NCBI GenBank assembly: GCA_964570625.1 | Contig: CAZMYW010000027.1 | Coordinates: 285,510-349,509 of the forward strand | Direction: 5' to 3' | DNA length: 64,000 nucleotides | Source: an uncultured Nitrospirota bacterium | Lineage (GTDB): Bacteria > Nitrospirota > Nitrospiria > 2-01-FULL-66-17 | Notes under the pieces: generated by a model | Seen by the model: the letters and a program-made list of their open reading frames with translations, nothing else | What the model was told of the DNA's origin: nothing | Database searches by the model: none | Translations under genes and position numbers: made by a program | In this document: piece after piece, positions 21,934-62,751 of the stretch | How positions within the stretch are numbered: the first letter of the stretch is position 1 | Layout of the letters: every line of letters begins with the position of its first letter

Positions 21934-22176
21934 GCCCACCTCCGCAAAAACTGTACTCACGGCGGGGATGAGGTGTCAAGAACACTGATCCGCGCTTCCA
22001 ACGTGACCGGGTTGTGGACCGAGAAGCGTATTCATGCACTATGAGACAGGAGCCCGTTCAGGAATGCGTCGGATGCCAGGCGGAGCGAGCGCCCGCACCG
22101 CAGCGTACTGTGTCGTACGTGAGGAGCGGACGCGGAGCGACAACGCCGCAGACGGCCATTCATGAACGGGCTCCCG

Positions 22177-56324: not shown

Positions 56325-56807
56325 GTGTCCAAGGCCGTGTATCAATTGTTCGTGGTTTTCGTGCTCTTTTCCGGGGTCATCTACCTGTTGTTGATGATCA
56401 GCCCGGATCAGCCGGCGTCACGAGCCGGCGAACGCGACATCACCATCCCACGTGCGCCGGGTGAGGCCAAACAGATCGCGAACCCGTTCCCCTTGAGCAA
56501 CGAGGTGCTGCTCGAAGGCGAACAAATTTACCAGACCAAAGGCACGTGTTTTACCTGCCACGGAACCTCCGGAAGGGGCGACGGCCCGGCCGGCCTGGAA
56601 CTCAACCCAAGACCCCGCAACTTCATCAATCCCCAGTTCCACGAACTCCGGACCGACGGCGAAATGTTCTGGGTGATCCGCAACGGGAGCCCCGGTTCAC
56701 GGATGTTTTCCTACTCCCCGTCGGTGATCACCGAAGACGAAGCCTGGAAGGTCATCCACTACATCCGAACCCTTCCCACCAGGAACGCGGGATCCGCCCC
56801 CGGTTAG
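56325..56807 (+). CDS. membrane-anchored mono-heme class I c-type cytochrome
   Basis: N-terminal TM helix, heme site CFTCHG and a distal Met region (FSYSP...). 160 aa. Confidence 0.8.
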   Translation: MSKAVYQLFVVFVLFSGVIYLLLMISPDQPASRAGERDITIPRAPGEAKQIANPFPLSNEVLLEGEQIYQTKGTCFTCHGTSGRGDGPAGLELNPRPRNFINPQFHELRTDGEMFWVIRNGSPGSRMFSYSPSVITEDEAWKVIHYIRTLPTRNAGSAPG

Positions 56808-56838
56808 AACACCGCTAGCAGTACCCTCGGGCGACACG

Positions 56839-57019
56839 CAGGCTGCTCAAAAAGCTCCAGCTGCCAGGCCGCAGGGAGGAGGAAACCGGAGCGTACTGGG
56901 TCGTACGCGAGGGCGAGTGGCGCCACGAAGAAGTGGCGCCAAGCCACGAGCGCCGAGACGGTAAGGCGGCCGGCACATCGCAGTACTGCACGCAGCAGAT
57001 GGACTTTTTCAGCAGCCTG
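56839..57019. repeat. MITE-like element copy L (181 bp) with 16-bp terminal inverted repeats CAGGCTGCTCAAAAAG / CTTTTTCAGCAGCCTG
   Basis: The TIRs are seen directly. An internal core of about 55 bp is shared with copy R in the opposite orientation. The right TIR abuts the stop codon of the 57020..59056 gene. Confidence 0.6.
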
Positions 57020-59056
57020 TTAGTCCTGGATGTCGCGGGTGGTGAAGGGCCGCGCCGGTTCCGCCCCCAGAATCCGTCGCAGAATCGAATTCAGCGTCAC
57101 CGGGTCGTTGTCGAACCCGCCGTGCGTCGTACTGCGCGAGGTGCTGGCCGCACCGTGACCACGCCCGGCGATCACCAGCGCCGGGAGTCCTCCGACCATA
57201 CGCTGTACCACCTTGTAGACCTCGTCGTCGGCCCCGAGAAATTTCTCCATCCCGAGAATCGGCACGCCGCGGCGCCCCTCAAAGGCGTTGCTGACCAGAT
57301 AGAGCAATGACTTCCCGTACGGCCCCACGGAATCGGCCCGCTCGGCTTCATCCCCGAGCAAGAAGAGGCTCGGGATCGGGCACCGGCCCTCCCGGATAAC
57401 GGGCAGCACCAGTCGCTTGAATAACGCGACCGTGATCGCGGGCGCCATGAAGTGCAGGCTCTTGATCGGTATCCCCAAGGCGGTGAGGTGCGGCAGGGCG
57501 TGCGCGGCGAAGATGCACCCGGCGCTGTGGCCCACCACGTGGAGTTCCCAGCGTCGTCGCTCGGACTCGCCCGCGCGTTTGAGCGCGGCCTGGCCGTGCC
57601 GCGCCAGCATGGCCATCCCGCCCCGCCTGGCCGGATGCTCCGAGGCCAGCCGCGCGTTTTCTTTCATCTCGTTCCACAACGCGGTTCCGGGAACCGCCGC
57701 GGTCAGCTCGATCGACCGGTCTTTGGCCTCGAGCAGGCCCTCGCGCAAGCGATGCATCCACTCCGCGGCCCCGGCTCGTTGGTCGACGTCGGTGAACAGG
57801 TCGCGGATCATCCCGTTGAGCGACTCCACCACCCCCGACTCCCACATCACGTGGAGCGGGTAGATCTCGTTGGCCAGCAACACGTCGCGAAACGCCACGA
57901 CCCGTCGCGCCACCGCCTGCTCGTCGTTGAGCCCGCCGTGCAGATACAGCAACACCCGACGTTTGGACCAGGTCTTCGCGGCCGCGGGAATGACGTCGTC
58001 GAACAGCCGTGCGAGGTCTTGTTCGGTGGTCCAGTACTCGCCGGACATGGACAACTCCCCGTTGTTGCCCACATCGATCACATAGGGACGGATCGCCGCC
58101 AGCGGAATCGCTTGGCTGGCCCGCTGCAGGCCTTCAGTGGTGTCGGTCGCCCCCGCGGCCCAGAGATCCACCGCCACCGGCACGCCGAGTTGCGCCACCC
58201 AGACGTCGGTGGTGTGCAACAGATAGTCTTCATACGGCAGCAGCGCAAAACCCTCGGCGCCCCACCGGCGGCCCCAGGAGTTCTGGACGATGAACCCCTG
58301 CGAGGTATACCCCACGATGGCCACCGCGTGCCCGCTGTCGGCCCGTCCTTTGCGCGCGATCACGGGCAACTCGCGCTGCCGCACCATCCCGCCCGATCGG
58401 TAGGAGAGCTTGACCTTGCGGGGCCCGGGGGTGTCCCACCCCGCGTGCACCATGAGTGTGGCGTACAAGACGCCGACCTCGTTGAGTGCCGCGTGCATGT
58501 CGCGCACCTGGCGGTGCATGACGCGATAATACGCGCCACCCGGCGTCGCGAGCGCCTCGTCCGCGATCGCCGGCGTAAAATGGTGCACACCGCGCCGGTC
58601 TTTGGGCCACGAGCGTTCGCCGCACACGCCGTGGCGCACCCAGCCCTTGATCGTGCCGCGCGCCGACGAGCCTTCGTACTGCTCGCCCGGCCATTCGTCG
58701 TACCGGCGCGCCAGTTCGTAGAGCATCCGAGCGCTGACCCGCCTCACCACCTTGCGCTGGTTCAGCAGAAAGTTGATCGCCGCGGCCAGCGCGTAGCCGG
58801 TGCAGGCGCCCTCGGCACCCTGATCCAGAATCTCGGGCACCGCGTCGCAGTTGATCAATTGATCGGGAAGCGGGATCAGCCGGGGCTGATAAAACCAGTC
58901 ACGAACGTCGATGCGATCCGGAAATGCGTCGAGGAACCGCCCCATGCGCTGCCCCGCAGAGGTCGCACCCTCCGGCCGAGAGGCCGGTTGACGCGCAGCC
59001 GGTCGAGGCGGACGGGTACGCGATCGAGCCGACGCGGAGCGGTGTTTGGCGACCAT
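57020..59056 (-). CDS. cytoplasmic two-domain enzyme: N-terminal papain-like (C1) cysteine peptidase domain fused to a C-terminal alpha/beta-hydrolase (esterase/lipase-like) domain
   Basis: C1 motifs are IDVRDW, DQGAEGACTGYALAAAI (Gln/Cys), GHAVAIVGY (His) and VQNSWGRRWGAEGF (Asn/Trp). The alpha/beta domain carries LYLHGG (oxyanion hole) and HVVGHSAGC (GxSxG). There is no signal peptide. AAGGAG RBS 5 nt before the ATG at 59056. The N-terminal 37 residues are basic and Pro-rich. Confidence 0.8.
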   Translation of the reverse strand: MVAKHRSASARSRTRPPRPAARQPASRPEGATSAGQRMGRFLDAFPDRIDVRDWFYQPRLIPLPDQLINCDAVPEILDQGAEGACTGYALAAAINFLLNQRKVVRRVSARMLYELARRYDEWPGEQYEGSSARGTIKGWVRHGVCGERSWPKDRRGVHHFTPAIADEALATPGGAYYRVMHRQVRDMHAALNEVGVLYATLMVHAGWDTPGPRKVKLSYRSGGMVRQRELPVIARKGRADSGHAVAIVGYTSQGFIVQNSWGRRWGAEGFALLPYEDYLLHTTDVWVAQLGVPVAVDLWAAGATDTTEGLQRASQAIPLAAIRPYVIDVGNNGELSMSGEYWTTEQDLARLFDDVIPAAAKTWSKRRVLLYLHGGLNDEQAVARRVVAFRDVLLANEIYPLHVMWESGVVESLNGMIRDLFTDVDQRAGAAEWMHRLREGLLEAKDRSIELTAAVPGTALWNEMKENARLASEHPARRGGMAMLARHGQAALKRAGESERRRWELHVVGHSAGCIFAAHALPHLTALGIPIKSLHFMAPAITVALFKRLVLPVIREGRCPIPSLFLLGDEAERADSVGPYGKSLLYLVSNAFEGRRGVPILGMEKFLGADDEVYKVVQRMVGGLPALVIAGRGHGAASTSRSTTHGGFDNDPVTLNSILRRILGAEPARPFTTRDIQD

Positions 59057-59180
59057 GAGACTCCTTTCCCAGATGGAACGAGCCGACGATCAGTCGCACA
59101 ACTCAAGGAAGGTAACGGCAAGAGCATTAGCAAACAGCCGCCGCGAAGTCAAGCAAGTTATTTCGAGATGGAATATCCCT

Positions 59181-59303
59181 GCAGGCTGCTGAAAAAGGCC
59201 CATCTGCTGCGTTCTCGGTCGTCGGAAATCCTCACGTACGACCCAGTACGCTCCGGTTTTCCTCCTTCCTGCGGCCTTGCAGCTGGGCCTTTTTGAGCAG
59301 CCT
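59181..59303. repeat. MITE-like element copy R (123 bp), inverted relative to copy L; TIRs CAGGCTGCTGAAAAAG / CTTTTTGAGCAGCCTC
   Basis: The reverse complement aligns with copy L across the TIR, the 55-bp core (..CCGGAGCGTACTGGGTCGTACG) and a distal GCAGCAGATGG block. Copy L carries an extra 88-bp internal segment. Confidence 0.6.
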
Positions 59304-59305
59304 CC

Positions 59306-60211
59306 CTACGCGCAGAGGGGAAGGGCGTCTGCCGAGACCTCTCCCAGAACCTCTTGCAACCGCGCTTCCACCCCGCAATCCGTCCATCCCGCGTCTTTGA
59401 CCGGAAGAACTGTCAGGGTAGGGCGCGTCAGCCCAGGGAGCCGGCGCAGAAAGGCCGACGAGAAGTTCAAGGGGTGAAACGTCCGGTACACCTCATCGAT
59501 CTCTTCGCGTGTGCCTGCGCTCACCGCCAGACGGCGAAACGCGCCCGCGAGCACCGGCGCCGCCTCCTGGACATACGCCCACAACGTGCTGGCGCGAAAC
59601 ACCATCACGAACGTGTTCCACAGCGCCCCCCGCTCGATCAACTCAGCCGCCCGAGTGGCGCCGGGTTTTTCCACGAATCGCGTCACCGCACACAGACCGT
59701 TCGAGTCCGGCGCTCCCGGCACCACGTATCCATAGTCCGCCTCGGGGCCGGTCGGCGCCACGGCGAGCAGGACGACCCGGGACGGTTGACGCTCCACAGC
59801 TTCGCAGGCGCGCGCGACCTGCGTCATAAACGCCTCGTCATTCGTGACCATATGGTCCGAGGGAAACACCGCCACCGTGGCGTCGCCGTACTCCCGGCCG
59901 ATGCTCACCAGGGGCAGCAAGAGTCCGGGCGCCGTGTCTTTGTTCTCGGGCTGCACCACCACGCGACCGCCCGGACGATTCGCAAGTTGTCGCCACACAT
60001 CGGGAAACGCAAAGTGATCGCGGCTGACCACGGTGAACAACCGGCGTGGCGTGATCAAGCGTTCGGCACGGCGGAAGGTCTGCTCCAGCAGCGAACCGGC
60101 CCCCGTAAAATCGACATACTGCTTGGGCAACGCGTCACCGCGCAGCCGGCGCACGAACGCCTCCAACCGACGCCCGTCTCCCCCCGCCAACACGATACCG
60201 CAGCGCACCAT
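59306..60211 (-). CDS. sugar-phosphate nucleotidyltransferase (mannose-1-phosphate guanylyltransferase-like)
   Basis: MVRCGIVLAGGDGRRL and KQYVDFTGAGSLLEQT N-terminal NTP-transferase motifs. GGGAGG RBS. The track ORF's first 125 codons are discarded. Confidence 0.75.
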   Translation of the reverse strand: MVRCGIVLAGGDGRRLEAFVRRLRGDALPKQYVDFTGAGSLLEQTFRRAERLITPRRLFTVVSRDHFAFPDVWRQLANRPGGRVVVQPENKDTAPGLLLPLVSIGREYGDATVAVFPSDHMVTNDEAFMTQVARACEAVERQPSRVVLLAVAPTGPEADYGYVVPGAPDSNGLCAVTRFVEKPGATRAAELIERGALWNTFVMVFRASTLWAYVQEAAPVLAGAFRRLAVSAGTREEIDEVYRTFHPLNFSSAFLRRLPGLTRPTLTVLPVKDAGWTDCGVEARLQEVLGEVSADALPLCA

Positions 60212-60672
60212 GGCTCCTCCCGCGTCCTTCATCATGCCTCCCGTTGTTGGATGGAAAACAGAAAAGATCAATTCGACAAAAACAGCGATGAAGGATAGCC
60301 GAGGGCGGACCTTCTGTAAAATCGATGCCGCGTTCAACGAGTTCGAAACATGATGAAACAGTGAGCAAGAGATGCCTTGACCTCGCGGTTTCTCGCGTGC
60401 TATCACCTTACTGGTGAGACGCGGACGCGAAACGATCGCGGGACGGACTTCACGTTTTCGAAAGGACACGATCTCAGACACACAGTTGTAAACACCTTCC
60501 ATCATGGCAAACTGCCGGCGACGGCAGGACGCAAAGCACCGGATCTTCCGAGACGCTGAAGACAGCCGGGCCGCCGAGGTGGCAATAATCAAACCAGTGA
60601 TTATTGGCATGTCGGGAGCCCGGCTTTTCTATTCCGGCTCCCGCGGTTGGCGTCACGGGGAACAGTCTCGCG

Positions 60673-61455
60673 ATGTACGACTGCTCGGAGATCAACAAAC
60701 TCCTGCATCCCTCCCTGGATCGGGAGCTGGACATCAAAGAGTCCCTCCGCGTCCAGACCCACCTCAAAGACTGCGCCTCGTGTCGCGAACGGCTCCTGGA
60801 CGATCAAGAATTCCTGGCATACCTCCCGTCGCTCCTGACGCCGAACCCCGCGCCGGACACCGTGCGTCAAGCCGTCACCGATGCGCTATCGCGTGAGGCT
60901 CATCGGCTCGACCAGAGCAGGCTCCGGTGGCGCGCGCTCGCCTCACCCAGCATGCTCGCGGCGGTTACGGTGCTTCTGGCCCTGTTCTACGTCATCCCCC
61001 ACCCGCAGATCCCGACATTGGTGAAGATCGCCCTGGCCGAACATCGGCTCTACATGAAAGACCCTGCGCTCCTGCAAATCAAGAACGACGACGTGCGAAC
61101 CGTGACGCACGCGCTCCAACAGCGACTACCCTTCCCTCTCCACGTCCCGCCAAAAACCACGGCCGACGTCCGACTGGTCGGCGCCGACGTGATGCCCCAC
61201 CCGATCCCCTCCGCGGTGCTTGCGTACCAGGTGAACGACTCACCCGTCTCGCTGCTCGTCACCACCCCGCGAAATATCTCGTTCTCCAACGCCGCGACCC
61301 GGACCTTCAAAAACACGCTCTTTCACTCCGCCTTCCTCGATGGCCTCCACGTGCTGCAGTGGTCGGACCACCGCCACACCTACGTCCTGGTGGCCTGCCG
61401 CGACACACCAGTCGACTCCCTCCCCTTCGCCGTGCTCACGGCCGATGGCTCCTAA
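60673..61455 (+). CDS. zinc-finger anti-sigma factor (ZAS, HxxxCxxC) with TM helix and periplasmic C-terminal domain
   Basis: MYDCSEINKLLH..LRVQTHLKDCASCRERL motif, then a TM helix (MLAAVTVLLALFYVI). No ECF sigma gene is adjacent. Confidence 0.6.
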   Translation: MYDCSEINKLLHPSLDRELDIKESLRVQTHLKDCASCRERLLDDQEFLAYLPSLLTPNPAPDTVRQAVTDALSREAHRLDQSRLRWRALASPSMLAAVTVLLALFYVIPHPQIPTLVKIALAEHRLYMKDPALLQIKNDDVRTVTHALQQRLPFPLHVPPKTTADVRLVGADVMPHPIPSAVLAYQVNDSPVSLLVTTPRNISFSNAATRTFKNTLFHSAFLDGLHVLQWSDHRHTYVLVACRDTPVDSLPFAVLTADGS

Positions 61456-61728: not shown

Positions 61729-62751
61729 TTGAAATCCTATCCGATCATAAAACAGGATGAGATTAGTGAGGCGCATATTTTGCCCAAAGCCTCTGGCGGC
61801 ACGTTGAAGACCTATCTCTGTGTAAAGTGTAACAGTACGTTTGGGAGTCGGCAGGACAAATGGTTTGGAGAATACCTCGGGGTGATAAAGGACAAGGATC
61901 GCTCTATTTTTGGATGCGAAACAAAAAAAGGTTACTTTGAAATTGAGGGTATTCGTGTAGGTGGTAAATTCGAGTTTACGCTCCAAGATGGATTCCAGTT
62001 GTTTATCTGGCAGGATAAGACATCTCCTGCGGCGCTGAAGAAACTACAAGAGCTTCGAAACAATGGAGGTCTAAGCACATACAACGTCAGCATCCCGATT
62101 CCACTTCTAGAGGAGGAAAACCAGAGGCTTTCGGGGATCGGTTTTCTTACCGCGGCTTACTTACTGTGGTTTAAAGAATTTGGATACTCATGGGCTCTGC
62201 AAAAACACCTCGAACCAATAAGGCAGCAGATCCATAAACCGACAGAATCAATTTTGCCTGCAAAGTTTTTGGCTACTACGAATAGCGTGTTTGACAGTCC
62301 GTGGATTGGAATCGCCTTTCTAGGCGGCGAAGTGGCTCTCGCGGCTGGTCTCGCGAATCATGTTGTCCTTTTGCCTCCAGCGGACAGAGTTGATTTCTAT
62401 CATCGAATCTCTCGAATCGACACAGAAAACATCAAGTTGAGTAACCTCCGGACATTTAGTTTTTATAAAAATCACTCCTTCGATGGCCCATTGGGAATAC
62501 TGTTTGGGGATTGCCTTGCCTTGGCCCCTGATGCGCTGCGGGTTGGCGGAAATCCAAATGTTGCTGTGCTGTTTCTCCCGCCTGAAGGAGACTCGCCTCA
62601 ACTCCTGTACCCAGTTCCTGCAAACACCTCAATTTCTATTCCCCCAGACGCTATTAGGATAAGGTCGAGAAGAGGGCGCTTAGCGCCACTGGCTACGTTG
62701 GGCGAAGGCGGGCCAGCAGCTGTAGTTCCGGAGTCCGGAAGCCCCGCGTGA
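61729..62751 (+). CDS. HNH-motif nuclease-like protein with an unknown 280-aa C-terminal domain; N-terminus probably disrupted
   Basis: EAHILPKASGG..TYLCVKCNSTFG HNH core. The matching upstream CxxC (CFICPTC, 61708-61728) is in frame but precedes the only start codon in the track (TTG at 61729). An in-frame ATG at 61594 is followed by TGA at 61606. The locus is AT-richer than the surrounding DNA. Confidence 0.5.
   Translation: MKSYPIIKQDEISEAHILPKASGGTLKTYLCVKCNSTFGSRQDKWFGEYLGVIKDKDRSIFGCETKKGYFEIEGIRVGGKFEFTLQDGFQLFIWQDKTSPAALKKLQELRNNGGLSTYNVSIPIPLLEEENQRLSGIGFLTAAYLLWFKEFGYSWALQKHLEPIRQQIHKPTESILPAKFLATTNSVFDSPWIGIAFLGGEVALAAGLANHVVLLPPADRVDFYHRISRIDTENIKLSNLRTFSFYKNHSFDGPLGILFGDCLALAPDALRVGGNPNVAVLFLPPEGDSPQLLYPVPANTSISIPPDAIRIRSRRGRLAPLATLGEGGPAAVVPESGSPA

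What the first reader, a model, noticed from the sequence alone, without database searches (positions are those of the whole stretch)
56839..59303. Mobile-insertion-cassette-like unit: papain-like peptidase/alpha-beta-hydrolase fusion gene bracketed by inverted copies of a MITE-like element
What the sequence shows. Two copies of a small element flank one 2.0-kb gene in opposite orientation. Copy L spans 56839-57019 and copy R spans 59181-59303. Each copy has its own 16-bp terminal inverted repeats (CAGGCTGCTSAAAAAG) and a shared 55-bp core. Copy L ends exactly at the gene's stop codon. The cargo is an unusual architecture. A complete C1 papain-fold catalytic set (Gln/Cys in DQGAEGACTGY, His in GHAVAIVGY, Asn/Trp in NSWGRRWG) is followed by a serine alpha/beta-hydrolase domain (HGG oxyanion hole, GHSAG elbow). 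There is no secretion signal and the gene has a strong AAGGAG RBS. No transposase lies in or near the unit.

Inference. The layout matches TIR-bounded passenger cassettes that are mobilised in trans (MIC/MITE-type). A cytoplasmic protease-esterase fusion is not a housekeeping enzyme I recognise. A toxin or defence effector is one possibility, or a lipoprotein/peptidoglycan-remodelling function.
Basis: partly seen in the sequence, partly recalled or inferred. Interest (0 to 1): 0.75.

Follow-up and report, generated by a model that had tools for sequence, protein, structure and literature searches.

The report
IS5-type MITEs flanking a resident gene
The two inverted repeats are real miniature transposable elements of an IS5-family insertion sequence that landed separately on the stop-codon sites either side of a resident, vertically inherited protease-esterase gene, so this is ordinary mobile-DNA litter and not a mobile gene cassette.

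Summary
Two ~123/181-nt hairpin elements with 16-nt ends CAGGCTGCTSAAAAAG bracket a 678-aa gene, and copy L abuts its stop codon. The protein is a papain-fold (xylellain-like) peptidase fused to an alpha/beta hydrolase.

The cassette reading fails. Four Nitrospirota relatives (73-90% identity) carry the gene in the same neighbourhood: NTP-transferase, then peptidase, then a convergent cytochrome c. The flanking elements vary between them. They can be absent on one side, replaced by a second subfamily, or inverted.

The same 16-nt ends bound 1.3-1.8 kb insertion sequences elsewhere. These encode IS5-family transposases (NF033581) and have 4-bp YTAR target duplications. The named relative ISAzs10 has TTAG|CAGGCCGCGGAAAAAG.

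Small copies occur in at least seven phyla. In 26 of 52 copies one end touches a gene's stop codon (background 0.4%). YTAR contains TAG/TAA, so I infer that in GC-rich genomes the tolerated target sites are mostly stop codons.

The window's own copies lack clean duplications and look decayed. A third related element lies at 22049-22175.

The protein belongs to a large uncharacterised family (more than 2,700 homologues) with no conserved neighbours.

Verdict: a new member of a known kind, of modest interest.

The parts
56839..57019 (-). MITE copy L, the hairpin core, 181 nt. Read on the - strand it starts CAGGCTGCTGAAAAAG directly after the peptidase stop codon TAA (the flank is CTAA, a YTAR site).
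   Evidence: It folds as a long hairpin at -95.4 kcal/mol, z -5.65.
56815..56838 (.). Possible decayed outer end of copy L: CTAG (56815-56818) followed by 20 nt beginning CAG. If real, the element spans 56819-57019 and is flanked by CTAG and TTAG.
   Evidence: Read from the sequence. The analogy is with NC10-type copies, which carry a 27-nt outer terminal module. A YTAR lies exactly 20 nt beyond this end in 3 of 9 Nitrospirota-type copies. Inference only.
56913..56989 (.). Internal 77-nt segment of copy L that is absent from copy R. It contains its own hairpin, GGCGCCAC-TTCTTC-GTGGCGCC. The same segment is in the element at the other site in relative L121.
57020..59056 (-). Resident gene of 678 aa: a disordered basic N-terminus, a xylellain-like C1 cysteine peptidase (about aa 62-290) and a DUF900-like serine alpha/beta hydrolase (about aa 320-678).
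   Evidence: Synteny.
59057..59181 (-). The gene's own 5' region (RBS GGAAAGGAG and an upstream block with TTGACT...TAATGC). It is conserved in relatives L121 and L122 and lies outside the element.
   Evidence: Alignment. The simple promoter scan did not flag it, so promoter function is inferred.
59182..59304 (+). MITE copy R, the hairpin core, 123 nt. The canonical orientation is on the + strand, so it is reversed relative to the usual rule. Its C-type end (terminal base mutated to C) lies 1 nt from the NTP-transferase stop codon. There is no target duplication.
   Evidence: Hairpin -66.1 kcal/mol, z -5.71.
59306..60610 (-). Neighbouring NTP_transferase gene, given as the maximal ORF. From relatives of 302-315 aa the real start is probably near 60.2 kb. 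Its stop codon TAG is at 59306-59308.
   Evidence: Relatives.
56325..56807 (+). Neighbouring cytochrome c gene, convergent with the peptidase gene.
   Evidence: Relatives.
22049..22175 (.). Third related element in the window, subfamily 2: ends GGAGCCCGTTCAGGAATG / CATTCATGAACGGGCTCC and the same central CGTAC-loop-GTACG hairpin. It lies between two convergent ORFs, 5 nt and about 2 nt from their stop codons.

Best explanation
The 2.0-kb gene is a resident, vertically inherited gene of this Nitrospirota lineage. The two repeats are separate copies of a non-autonomous miniature element (MITE). Its 16-nt ends are those of an IS5-family insertion sequence of the ISAzs10-like group (NCBIfam IS5_4).

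That transposase inserts at YTAR tetranucleotides (CTAG, CTAA, TTAG, TTAA) and duplicates them. I infer that in a GC-rich genome the tolerated YTAR sites are mostly stop codons, and that the duplication keeps the stop codon intact. Insertions would therefore pile up directly after genes and recur at the same two intergenic sites in different relatives. The apparent bracketing follows from the gene having a stop-codon target at its own 3' end (CTAA) and at the 3' end of the upstream gene (TAG).

The element body is a long hairpin, kept by compensatory changes, ending in GGGCC-UUUUU. It probably acts as a terminator or 3'-end structure for the flanking genes; this step is inferred and not shown. 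The window's own copies lack an intact second true end and clean duplications, so they are probably old, no longer mobile copies.

The protein is a soluble two-domain hydrolase (papain-fold cysteine peptidase plus Ser-Asp-His alpha/beta hydrolase) of unknown substrate. It belongs to a large family of standalone genes.
For: Synteny. NTP_transferase, peptidase, convergent cytochrome c and then GlnD occur in L121 (90% identity), L122 (87%), L124 (73%) and the P0004 contig (84%), as in the window.

Element turnover at the L site. The window has subfamily 1. L121 has an 18-nt gap and the P0004 contig a 7-nt gap. L122 and L124 have subfamily 2.

Element turnover at the R site. The window has subfamily 1. 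L121 has subfamily 1 in the opposite orientation and 224 nt long. L122 has subfamily 2. L124 has none, with a 62-nt gap, and its stop there is TGA (CTGA, not YTAR).

Autonomous partners. Elements of 1.29-1.78 kb are bounded by inverted CAGGCTGCTGAAAAAG with identical 4-nt flanks: CTAG/CTAG in L064, L074 and L077; CTAA/CTAA in L049 and L069; TTAA/TTAA in L102. They encode DUF772 + DDE_Tnp_1 proteins that score 267.7 bits on NF033581, IS5 family (cut-off 140).

Named relative. ISAzs10 reads TTAG|CAGGCCGCGGAAAAAG...CTTTTTCCGCGTCCTG|TTAG.

Small elements. Of 24 small elements bounded by two true ends, 13 have identical 4-nt flanks, against a background of 0.4%.

Stop-codon abutment. In 26 of 52 copies a stop codon of an ORF of at least 60 codons lies at 0 nt from the true end, against a background of 0.4%. 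This never happens at the internal-type end.

IS5's YTAR target duplication is documented (PMC10359306). IS5-family-derived MITEs are documented (PMC4596501).

Hairpin. 93.7% of cells are paired against 83.5% in shuffles and 34-45% when slid. There are 52 double-change cells against 15.6 in shuffles. Fold z-scores are about -5.7.

Multi-copy status. A short-read contig of the identical gene breaks inside both repeats, and a third element is in the window.
Against: Neither window copy shows a clean 4-bp duplication. Copy L has CTAA at one end, and only a CTAG 20 nt beyond the other end. Copy R has none and is in the reverse of the usual orientation.

No IS5-type partner with this end was found in a Nitrospirota locus. 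The partners found were mostly alphaproteobacterial or acidobacterial.

The rest of the source genome was not available, so its copy number is unknown.

Conservation of the internal mismatch (G opposite G at position 10) and of the hairpin across phyla is more than a simple decaying MITE predicts. Terminator function is untested: the simple scan flags only a short inner stem on the + strand.
Confidence: 0.85

Rival explanations
1. Mobile insertion cassette or composite unit. The two inverted elements provide the ends, and a transposase supplied in trans moves the element-gene-element block as one piece.
For: Two related elements in inverted orientation bracket a single gene, and copy L abuts its stop codon. 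IS5-family transposases that use these ends exist.
Against: The gene is syntenic in four relatives whatever elements are present. Relatives lack one or the other element, or carry another subfamily or orientation. The outward-facing ends of the block are the internal-type repeats, which never carry target duplications. The flanks of the block do not match. Distant homologues are standalone genes in unrelated contexts without such repeats.
Confidence: 0.03
2. The elements are primarily host-selected RNA or DNA structures placed right after stop codons. They would act as bidirectional intrinsic terminators, mRNA 3'-end stabilisers, or ribosome-stalling hairpins of the kind reported for REP sequences near stop codons. 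On this view transposition is only how they arrived.
For: The hairpin is kept by compensatory changes across phyla. The folds are strong, with z about -5.7. A GC-rich stem is followed by U5 on both strands. An asymmetric mismatch is conserved in all copies. The copies sit 0-2 nt after stop codons. REPs within 15 nt of a stop codon are reported to stall ribosomes (cited in PMC12306157).
Against: The stop-codon position is already explained by the YTAR target preference and the duplications. Presence, subfamily and orientation differ between close relatives at the same site, which argues against a required function. No Rfam family matches. Covariation cannot separate an RNA hairpin from a DNA hairpin.
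Confidence: 0.25
3. The elements are REPIN/REP-type repeats, or derivatives of IS200/IS605 elements, moved as single-stranded DNA by a tyrosine HUH transposase. That mechanism gives one-sided adjacency to a short target and no duplication.
For: The hairpin-core copies (including both window copies) show one-sided adjacency to TAG/TAA and no duplication at the other end of the hairpin. They have a long hairpin with conserved mismatches.
Against: Where the outer end is intact, both ends carry identical 4-nt flanks. The ends are identical to those of DDE-type IS5-family elements. The arms are not themselves palindromic REP units, and no GTAG or CGTC tag is conserved.
Confidence: 0.03

Closest known systems
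ISAzs10 and related IS5-family insertion sequences (NCBIfam NF033581, transpos_IS5_4)
   Same: The terminal inverted repeat is nearly identical: CAGGCCGCGGAAAAAG in ISAzs10, 14 of 16 positions. It is exact in unnamed relatives L064, L069, L074, L077 and L102. These show a 4-bp YTAR target duplication.
   Different: The window elements are 123-181 nt and encode no transposase. Their interior is an unrelated long hairpin. They lack an intact second true end and clean duplications.
IS5-family-derived bacterial MITEs, for example BrickBuilt, MITE293 and MITE700 of Porphyromonas gingivalis, and the Neisseria ATR element linked to ISNme1 (PMC4596501)
   Same: They are short, non-coding and multi-copy. 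They share ends with IS5-family elements but not internal sequence, and many copies are degenerate.
   Different: This family spans at least seven phyla. It has a conserved hairpin with compensatory changes and an extra internal copy of the end. It sits almost exclusively on stop codons.
Correia elements (Neisseria), ERIC/IRU (enterobacteria) and REP sequences close to stop codons
   Same: They are intergenic palindromic repeats of about 100-150 nt that are transcribed within 3' untranslated regions and can act as terminators or RNA-processing sites (my own knowledge). The REP proximity effect on translation is cited in PMC12306157.
   Different: They have different ends, and different target sites or transposases where these are known. 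No functional data exist for the present family.
Mobile insertion cassettes (MICs, first described in Bacillus cereus; my own knowledge)
   Same: Superficially, a non-transposase gene lies between IS-type inverted ends.
   Different: Here there is no duplication around the unit. The gene is syntenic in relatives without one or both elements, and the elements are complete small MITEs in their own right.
Xylellain (PDB 3OIS), a bacterial C1A cysteine peptidase of Xylella fastidiosa
   Different: The window protein carries an extra 350-aa DUF900-like alpha/beta hydrolase domain and a disordered basic N-terminus.

Membership tests
MITE derived from an IS5-family insertion sequence | Short, non-coding, with terminal inverted repeats | tested here: met
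   The copies are 123 and 181 nt with 16-nt inverted ends. Lengths of 122-130 nt in other copies are not multiples of three.
MITE derived from an IS5-family insertion sequence | Ends shared with an autonomous element that encodes the transposase | tested here: met
   Elements of 1.3-1.8 kb have exactly these ends and an NF033581 IS5-family transposase. ISAzs10 matches at 14 of 16 positions.
MITE derived from an IS5-family insertion sequence | Target-site duplication of the family's type (4 bp, YTAR) | tested here: inconclusive
   For the family this is met: 13 of 24 small and 6 of 10 large elements have identical 4-nt flanks, mostly YTAR, against a background of 0.4%. For the two window copies it is not: copy L has CTAA at one end and CTAG only 20 nt beyond the other, and copy R has none.
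MITE derived from an IS5-family insertion sequence | Multiple dispersed copies and presence/absence differences between relatives | tested here: met
   Three related copies are in the window. A short-read contig breaks in both repeats. There are empty sites in L121, L124 and the P0004 contig. 52 full-length copies were found in the sampled loci. The whole-genome count for the source organism could not be made.
Mobile insertion cassette / composite transposon | One target duplication flanking the whole unit | tested here: not met
   The outer flanks do not match, and the outer ends are the internal-type repeats.
Mobile insertion cassette / composite transposon | The unit is present or absent as a block, with the passenger gene in varying locations | tested here: not met
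   The gene is at the same locus in four relatives with zero, one or two elements of differing type.
Peptidase family C1 (papain) | Profile match above the curated threshold and a conserved Gln/Cys/His/Asn catalytic set | tested here: met
Alpha/beta hydrolase (DUF900, PF05990-like) | Alpha/beta fold with a nucleophile elbow G-x-S-x-G and an acid and a His | tested here: met
Intrinsic (rho-independent) terminator | A GC-rich hairpin immediately followed by a U-run at the 3' end of a transcript | tested here: inconclusive
   The long hairpins end in GGGCC-UUUUU on the mRNA-sense strand. The simple scan allows only loops of 3-8 nt and flags just an inner stem on the + strand. No transcript data are available.
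Known anti-phage defence proteins (PADLOC) | Match to a defence-system profile | tested here: not met
   No PADLOC families matched. Distant homologues have no conserved neighbours.
Rfam RNA families | Covariance-model match | tested here: not met
   Nothing matched at the elements at gathering threshold or at E up to 10. There was only a sub-threshold CcsR1 hit of 19.6 bits against a threshold of 65.3.

The most novel reading that the evidence does not exclude
The hairpin-bearing MITE family has been co-opted across at least seven phyla as a stop-codon-adjacent RNA element: a portable bidirectional terminator, or a structure that protects mRNA 3' ends or stalls ribosomes. On this reading, selection on the folded strand explains three things: the compensatory changes, the invariant G-opposite-G mismatch, and the survival of the hairpin after the outer transposition end has decayed. 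A separate, lesser possibility is that the C1-peptidase/alpha-beta-hydrolase fusion family (more than 2,700 members, about 60% identical across phyla) is an uncharacterised enzyme class with a single coupled function.
Probability: 0.25. Interest if true: 0.5.

Novelty: new member of a known kind. Interest (0 to 1): 0.3.

Why it matters
It removes a false lead. The gene is not mobile cargo and shows no link to defence.

It also gives a simple, general rule that is useful for annotating GC-rich environmental genomes. IS5-type elements with YTAR targets, and their MITEs, accumulate exactly on stop codons. There they can be mistaken for cassette boundaries, small ORFs or regulatory palindromes, and they break short-read assemblies.

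Two modest follow-ups remain. The cross-phylum hairpin MITE may serve as a portable terminator. The widespread peptidase-esterase fusion is uncharacterised and would be a reasonable target for biochemistry.

Tried and rejected
- **Rfam.** Searches at gathering threshold and at E up to 10 found no family at the elements.
- **Literature search for the four end strings.** The only hit was an unrelated primer.
- **PADLOC and NCBIfam on the protein.** Nothing matched.
- **blastn of copy R against plasmids.** Only chance 35-nt hits in E. coli records were returned.
- **Integron attC sites.** I considered these because of the stop-codon adjacency, the hairpin and the conserved mismatches. I rejected them: there are no RYYYAAC/GTTRRRY boxes, no arrays, and the flanking genes are syntenic housekeeping-like genes.
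- **IS630/Tc1-mariner MITE with a TA duplication.** I considered this after seeing TAG|CAGG...CCTG|CTA. I rejected it once full-length partners proved to be IS5-family with 4-bp duplications.
- **REP/REPIN-RAYT.** Rejected, as set out under the rival explanations.
- **A small protein encoded by the element.** Rejected because copy lengths vary by single nucleotides.
- **The 'orientation rule'.** I first read this as evidence of strand-specific function, because one end always faces the stop codon. It turned out to be largely an artefact of defining the element by its inner hairpin. In complete copies the other true end lies 27 nt further out and also abuts a YTAR.
- **Foldseek against AFDB50.** This library was not available.
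Full report
**1. The observation**

The window holds exactly four matches to CAGGCTGCTSAAAAAG, where 0.02 are expected by chance. They form two elements, at 56839-57019 and 59182-59304. The two elements share about 73 nt at 91-97% identity in inverted orientation, plus the other end. Copy L carries an extra 77-nt internal segment.

Between them lies one ORF, 57020-59056 on the - strand, of 678 aa. Its stop codon touches copy L, and GGAAAGGAG precedes its ATG.

**2. The protein**

- Pfam Peptidase_C1 is above threshold, at 29.6 bits against 20.7.
- A profile built from 30 homologues matches xylellain (PDB 3OIS) at E 8e-21.
- An AlphaFold model (mean pLDDT 69; the C-terminal core is mostly above 85) matches xylellain and cathepsin B by Foldseek.
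- The Gln/Cys/His/Asn residues are invariant. So are the HGG motif, the GHSAG elbow, D575 and H645.
- DUF900 (PF05990) is detected in 10 of 30 homologues at E up to 1 (best 2.3e-5).
- There is no PADLOC or NCBIfam match.
- The family is large. More than 2,751 proteins match, and the top 120 are full-length at 61-90% identity. They come from Nitrospirota, Acidobacteriota and Verrucomicrobiota.
- Three distant members share no neighbouring genes.

The domain call is therefore right. The function remains unknown.

**3. Is it a cassette?**

It is not. Relatives at 90% (L121), 87% (L122), 84% (the P0004 contig) and 73% (L124) identity all have the same order: NTP_transferase, then peptidase, then a convergent cytochrome c, two small ORFs, and GlnD. 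The window has this order too.

The elements do not travel with the gene.

- **Peptidase/cytochrome-c junction (L site).** L121 has only 18 nt and the P0004 contig only 7 nt. L122 and L124 carry a different subfamily with ends GGAGCCTGTYCAGGAACC.
- **NTP-transferase/peptidase junction (R site).** L124 has only 62 nt. L121 has a 224-nt copy in the opposite orientation to the window's. L122 has the second subfamily.

A conserved 5' region with the RBS lies between the R-site element and the gene in the window, L121 and L122, so the gene keeps its own upstream region.

**4. What the repeats are**

A profile search of those loci gave 52 full-length copies of 122-130 nt. Some are longer because of nested inserts. 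They come from Nitrospirota, NC10, several 'Deltaproteobacteria' lineages, Binatia, Acidobacteriota, Planctomycetota and Omnitrophota.

All copies fold into one long hairpin with a central GCGTAC-loop-GTACGC tip.

- 12 of 32 pairs show compensatory changes.
- 93.7% of cells are paired, against 83.5% in shuffles and 34-45% when the partners are slid.
- There are 52 double-change cells, against 15.6 in shuffles.

The outer stem is invariant partly because of how the copies were selected. Covariation cannot distinguish an RNA hairpin from a DNA hairpin.

Position 10 of the end is always G on one arm and C on the other arm's complement. This defines an orientation.

**5. The stop-codon pattern and its cause**

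In 26 of 52 copies, the stop codon of a co-directional ORF of at least 60 codons lies 0 nt from the G-type end. In 5 more it lies within 1-2 nt. The background rate is 0.4%. It never happens at the other end of the hairpin. TAG greatly outnumbers TAA and TGA (34, 10 and 4), which points to a sequence preference and not to a function of stop codons as such.

In NC10-type, acidobacterial and some other copies, the hairpin is followed by a 27-nt module. This module ends in a second G-type end, which again abuts CTA or TTA.

Pairing G-type ends gave two sets:

- 24 small elements, 13 with identical 4-nt flanks, mostly CTAG, CTAA, TTAG or TTAA;
- 10 elements of insertion-sequence size, 6 with identical flanks.

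The background rate for identical flanks is 0.4%.

The 1.29-1.78-kb elements encode proteins of 360-404 aa with DUF772 and DDE_Tnp_1 domains. These score 267.7 bits on NF033581, 'IS5 family transposase', against a cut-off of 140. The nearest named element, ISAzs10 of Azospirillum sp. B510, reads TTAG|CAGGCCGCGGAAAAAG...CTTTTTCCGCGTCCTG|TTAG.

YTAR is the documented target duplication of IS5 (PMC10359306). IS5-family-derived MITEs are already known (PMC4596501).

The stop-codon pattern therefore follows from target choice. YTAR contains TAG or TAA, and the duplication regenerates the stop. I infer that in GC-rich genomes the tolerated sites are mostly at the ends of genes. The same logic explains repeated, independent hits at the two junctions studied here. 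It also fits the one relative without an R-site element (L124), whose stop there is CTGA, which is not a YTAR.

**6. The window's own copies**

Copy L obeys the rule. On the - strand it reads GAC-TAA|CAGGCTGCTGAAAAAG, and the empty site in L121 also reads CTAA. Beyond its other end there are 20 nt beginning CAG, preceded on the + strand by CTAG. This may be a decayed outer end, but that is inference.

Copy R is atypical. It is reversed, its terminal base is mutated, and it has no duplication.

Neither copy has two intact true ends, so both are probably immobile relics. tblastn finds no relative of the transposase in the window.

Three further observations bear on copy number and lineage.

- A third related element (subfamily 2, same central hairpin) lies at 22049-22175 between two convergent ORFs, again within 2-5 nt of their stops.
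- A 2,240-nt short-read contig with the identical gene ends inside both repeats, as expected for multi-copy sequence.
- Copy L's 77-nt insert is shared with the R-site element of L121, so these copies belong to one lineage-specific sub-lineage.

**7. Likely effect**

On the mRNA-sense strand both copies fold strongly, at -95 and -66 kcal/mol with z about -5.7. Each ends in GGGCC/GGAGC followed by U5. A terminator or 3'-end-structure role is plausible for the peptidase and cytochrome c genes (copy L) and for NTP_transferase (copy R), but it is untested. The simple terminator scan cannot see such long stems. REP hairpins within 15 nt of stop codons are reported to affect translation (cited in PMC12306157), which is a possible parallel.

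**8. Verdict**

The MITE and domain calls are right. The cassette inference is refuted.

These are new members of a known kind: IS5-family MITEs beside a resident gene of an uncharacterised hydrolase family. The points of some interest are the cross-phylum, structure-conserving hairpin MITE that sits on stop codons, and the unstudied peptidase-esterase fusion.

Noticed in passing
window 60496-60578 (+), upstream of ORF 60604-61455 (+): A c-di-GMP-I riboswitch (52.3 bits against a gathering score of 35) directly precedes an ORF with a zf-HC2 (anti-sigma-factor-type) domain. It is divergent from the NTP_transferase gene.
   Followed up: partly
window 22049-22175: A third hairpin element, of a second subfamily (ends GGAGCCCGTTCAGGAATG). 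It has the same central CGTAC-loop-GTACG core and lies between two convergent ORFs, within 2-5 nt of their stop codons. The same subfamily occupies the peptidase junctions in relatives L122 and L124.
   Followed up: partly
window 59306-60610 to 60604; compare L121 3011-3967, L122 3656-4570, L124 3992-4906: Three relatives have a Mem_trans (auxin-efflux-carrier-type) gene upstream of NTP_transferase. The window and the P0004 contig lack it and go straight to the zf-HC2 gene.
   Followed up: no
window 61729-62751 (+): An ORF of 340 aa with an N-terminal HNH_5 endonuclease domain, a few kb from the locus. It is unrelated to the IS5-type transposase.
   Followed up: no
all copies; window 56848/57010 and 59191/59295: Position 10 of the 16-nt end is always mismatched across the hairpin (G opposite G on one strand). 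The G-type end contains TGA at positions 9-11. In eight copies that lack an abutting stop, an open frame of at least 60 codons ends at this TGA. At least one of the eight (window copy R) is spurious, being antisense to the peptidase upstream region.
   Followed up: partly
L004, L010, L017, L040, L041, L048, L062, L112 (NC10, Acidobacteriota, Planctomycetota): Complete copies of about 152 nt have three copies of the end: an outer G-type end, an internal inverted C-type copy that closes the hairpin, a 12-nt spacer, and an outer G-type end. The origin of this three-repeat layout is not explained.
   Followed up: partly
L123 (Logan SRR9952630 contig, 2240 nt): A short-read contig encoding the identical protein begins and ends inside the two repeats, so the assembly broke at both elements.
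   Followed up: yes
L121 1227-1828: In the 90%-identity relative, a Gp49-like/HTH toxin-antitoxin-type gene pair lies near the locus. It has no counterpart in the same position in the window.
   Followed up: no
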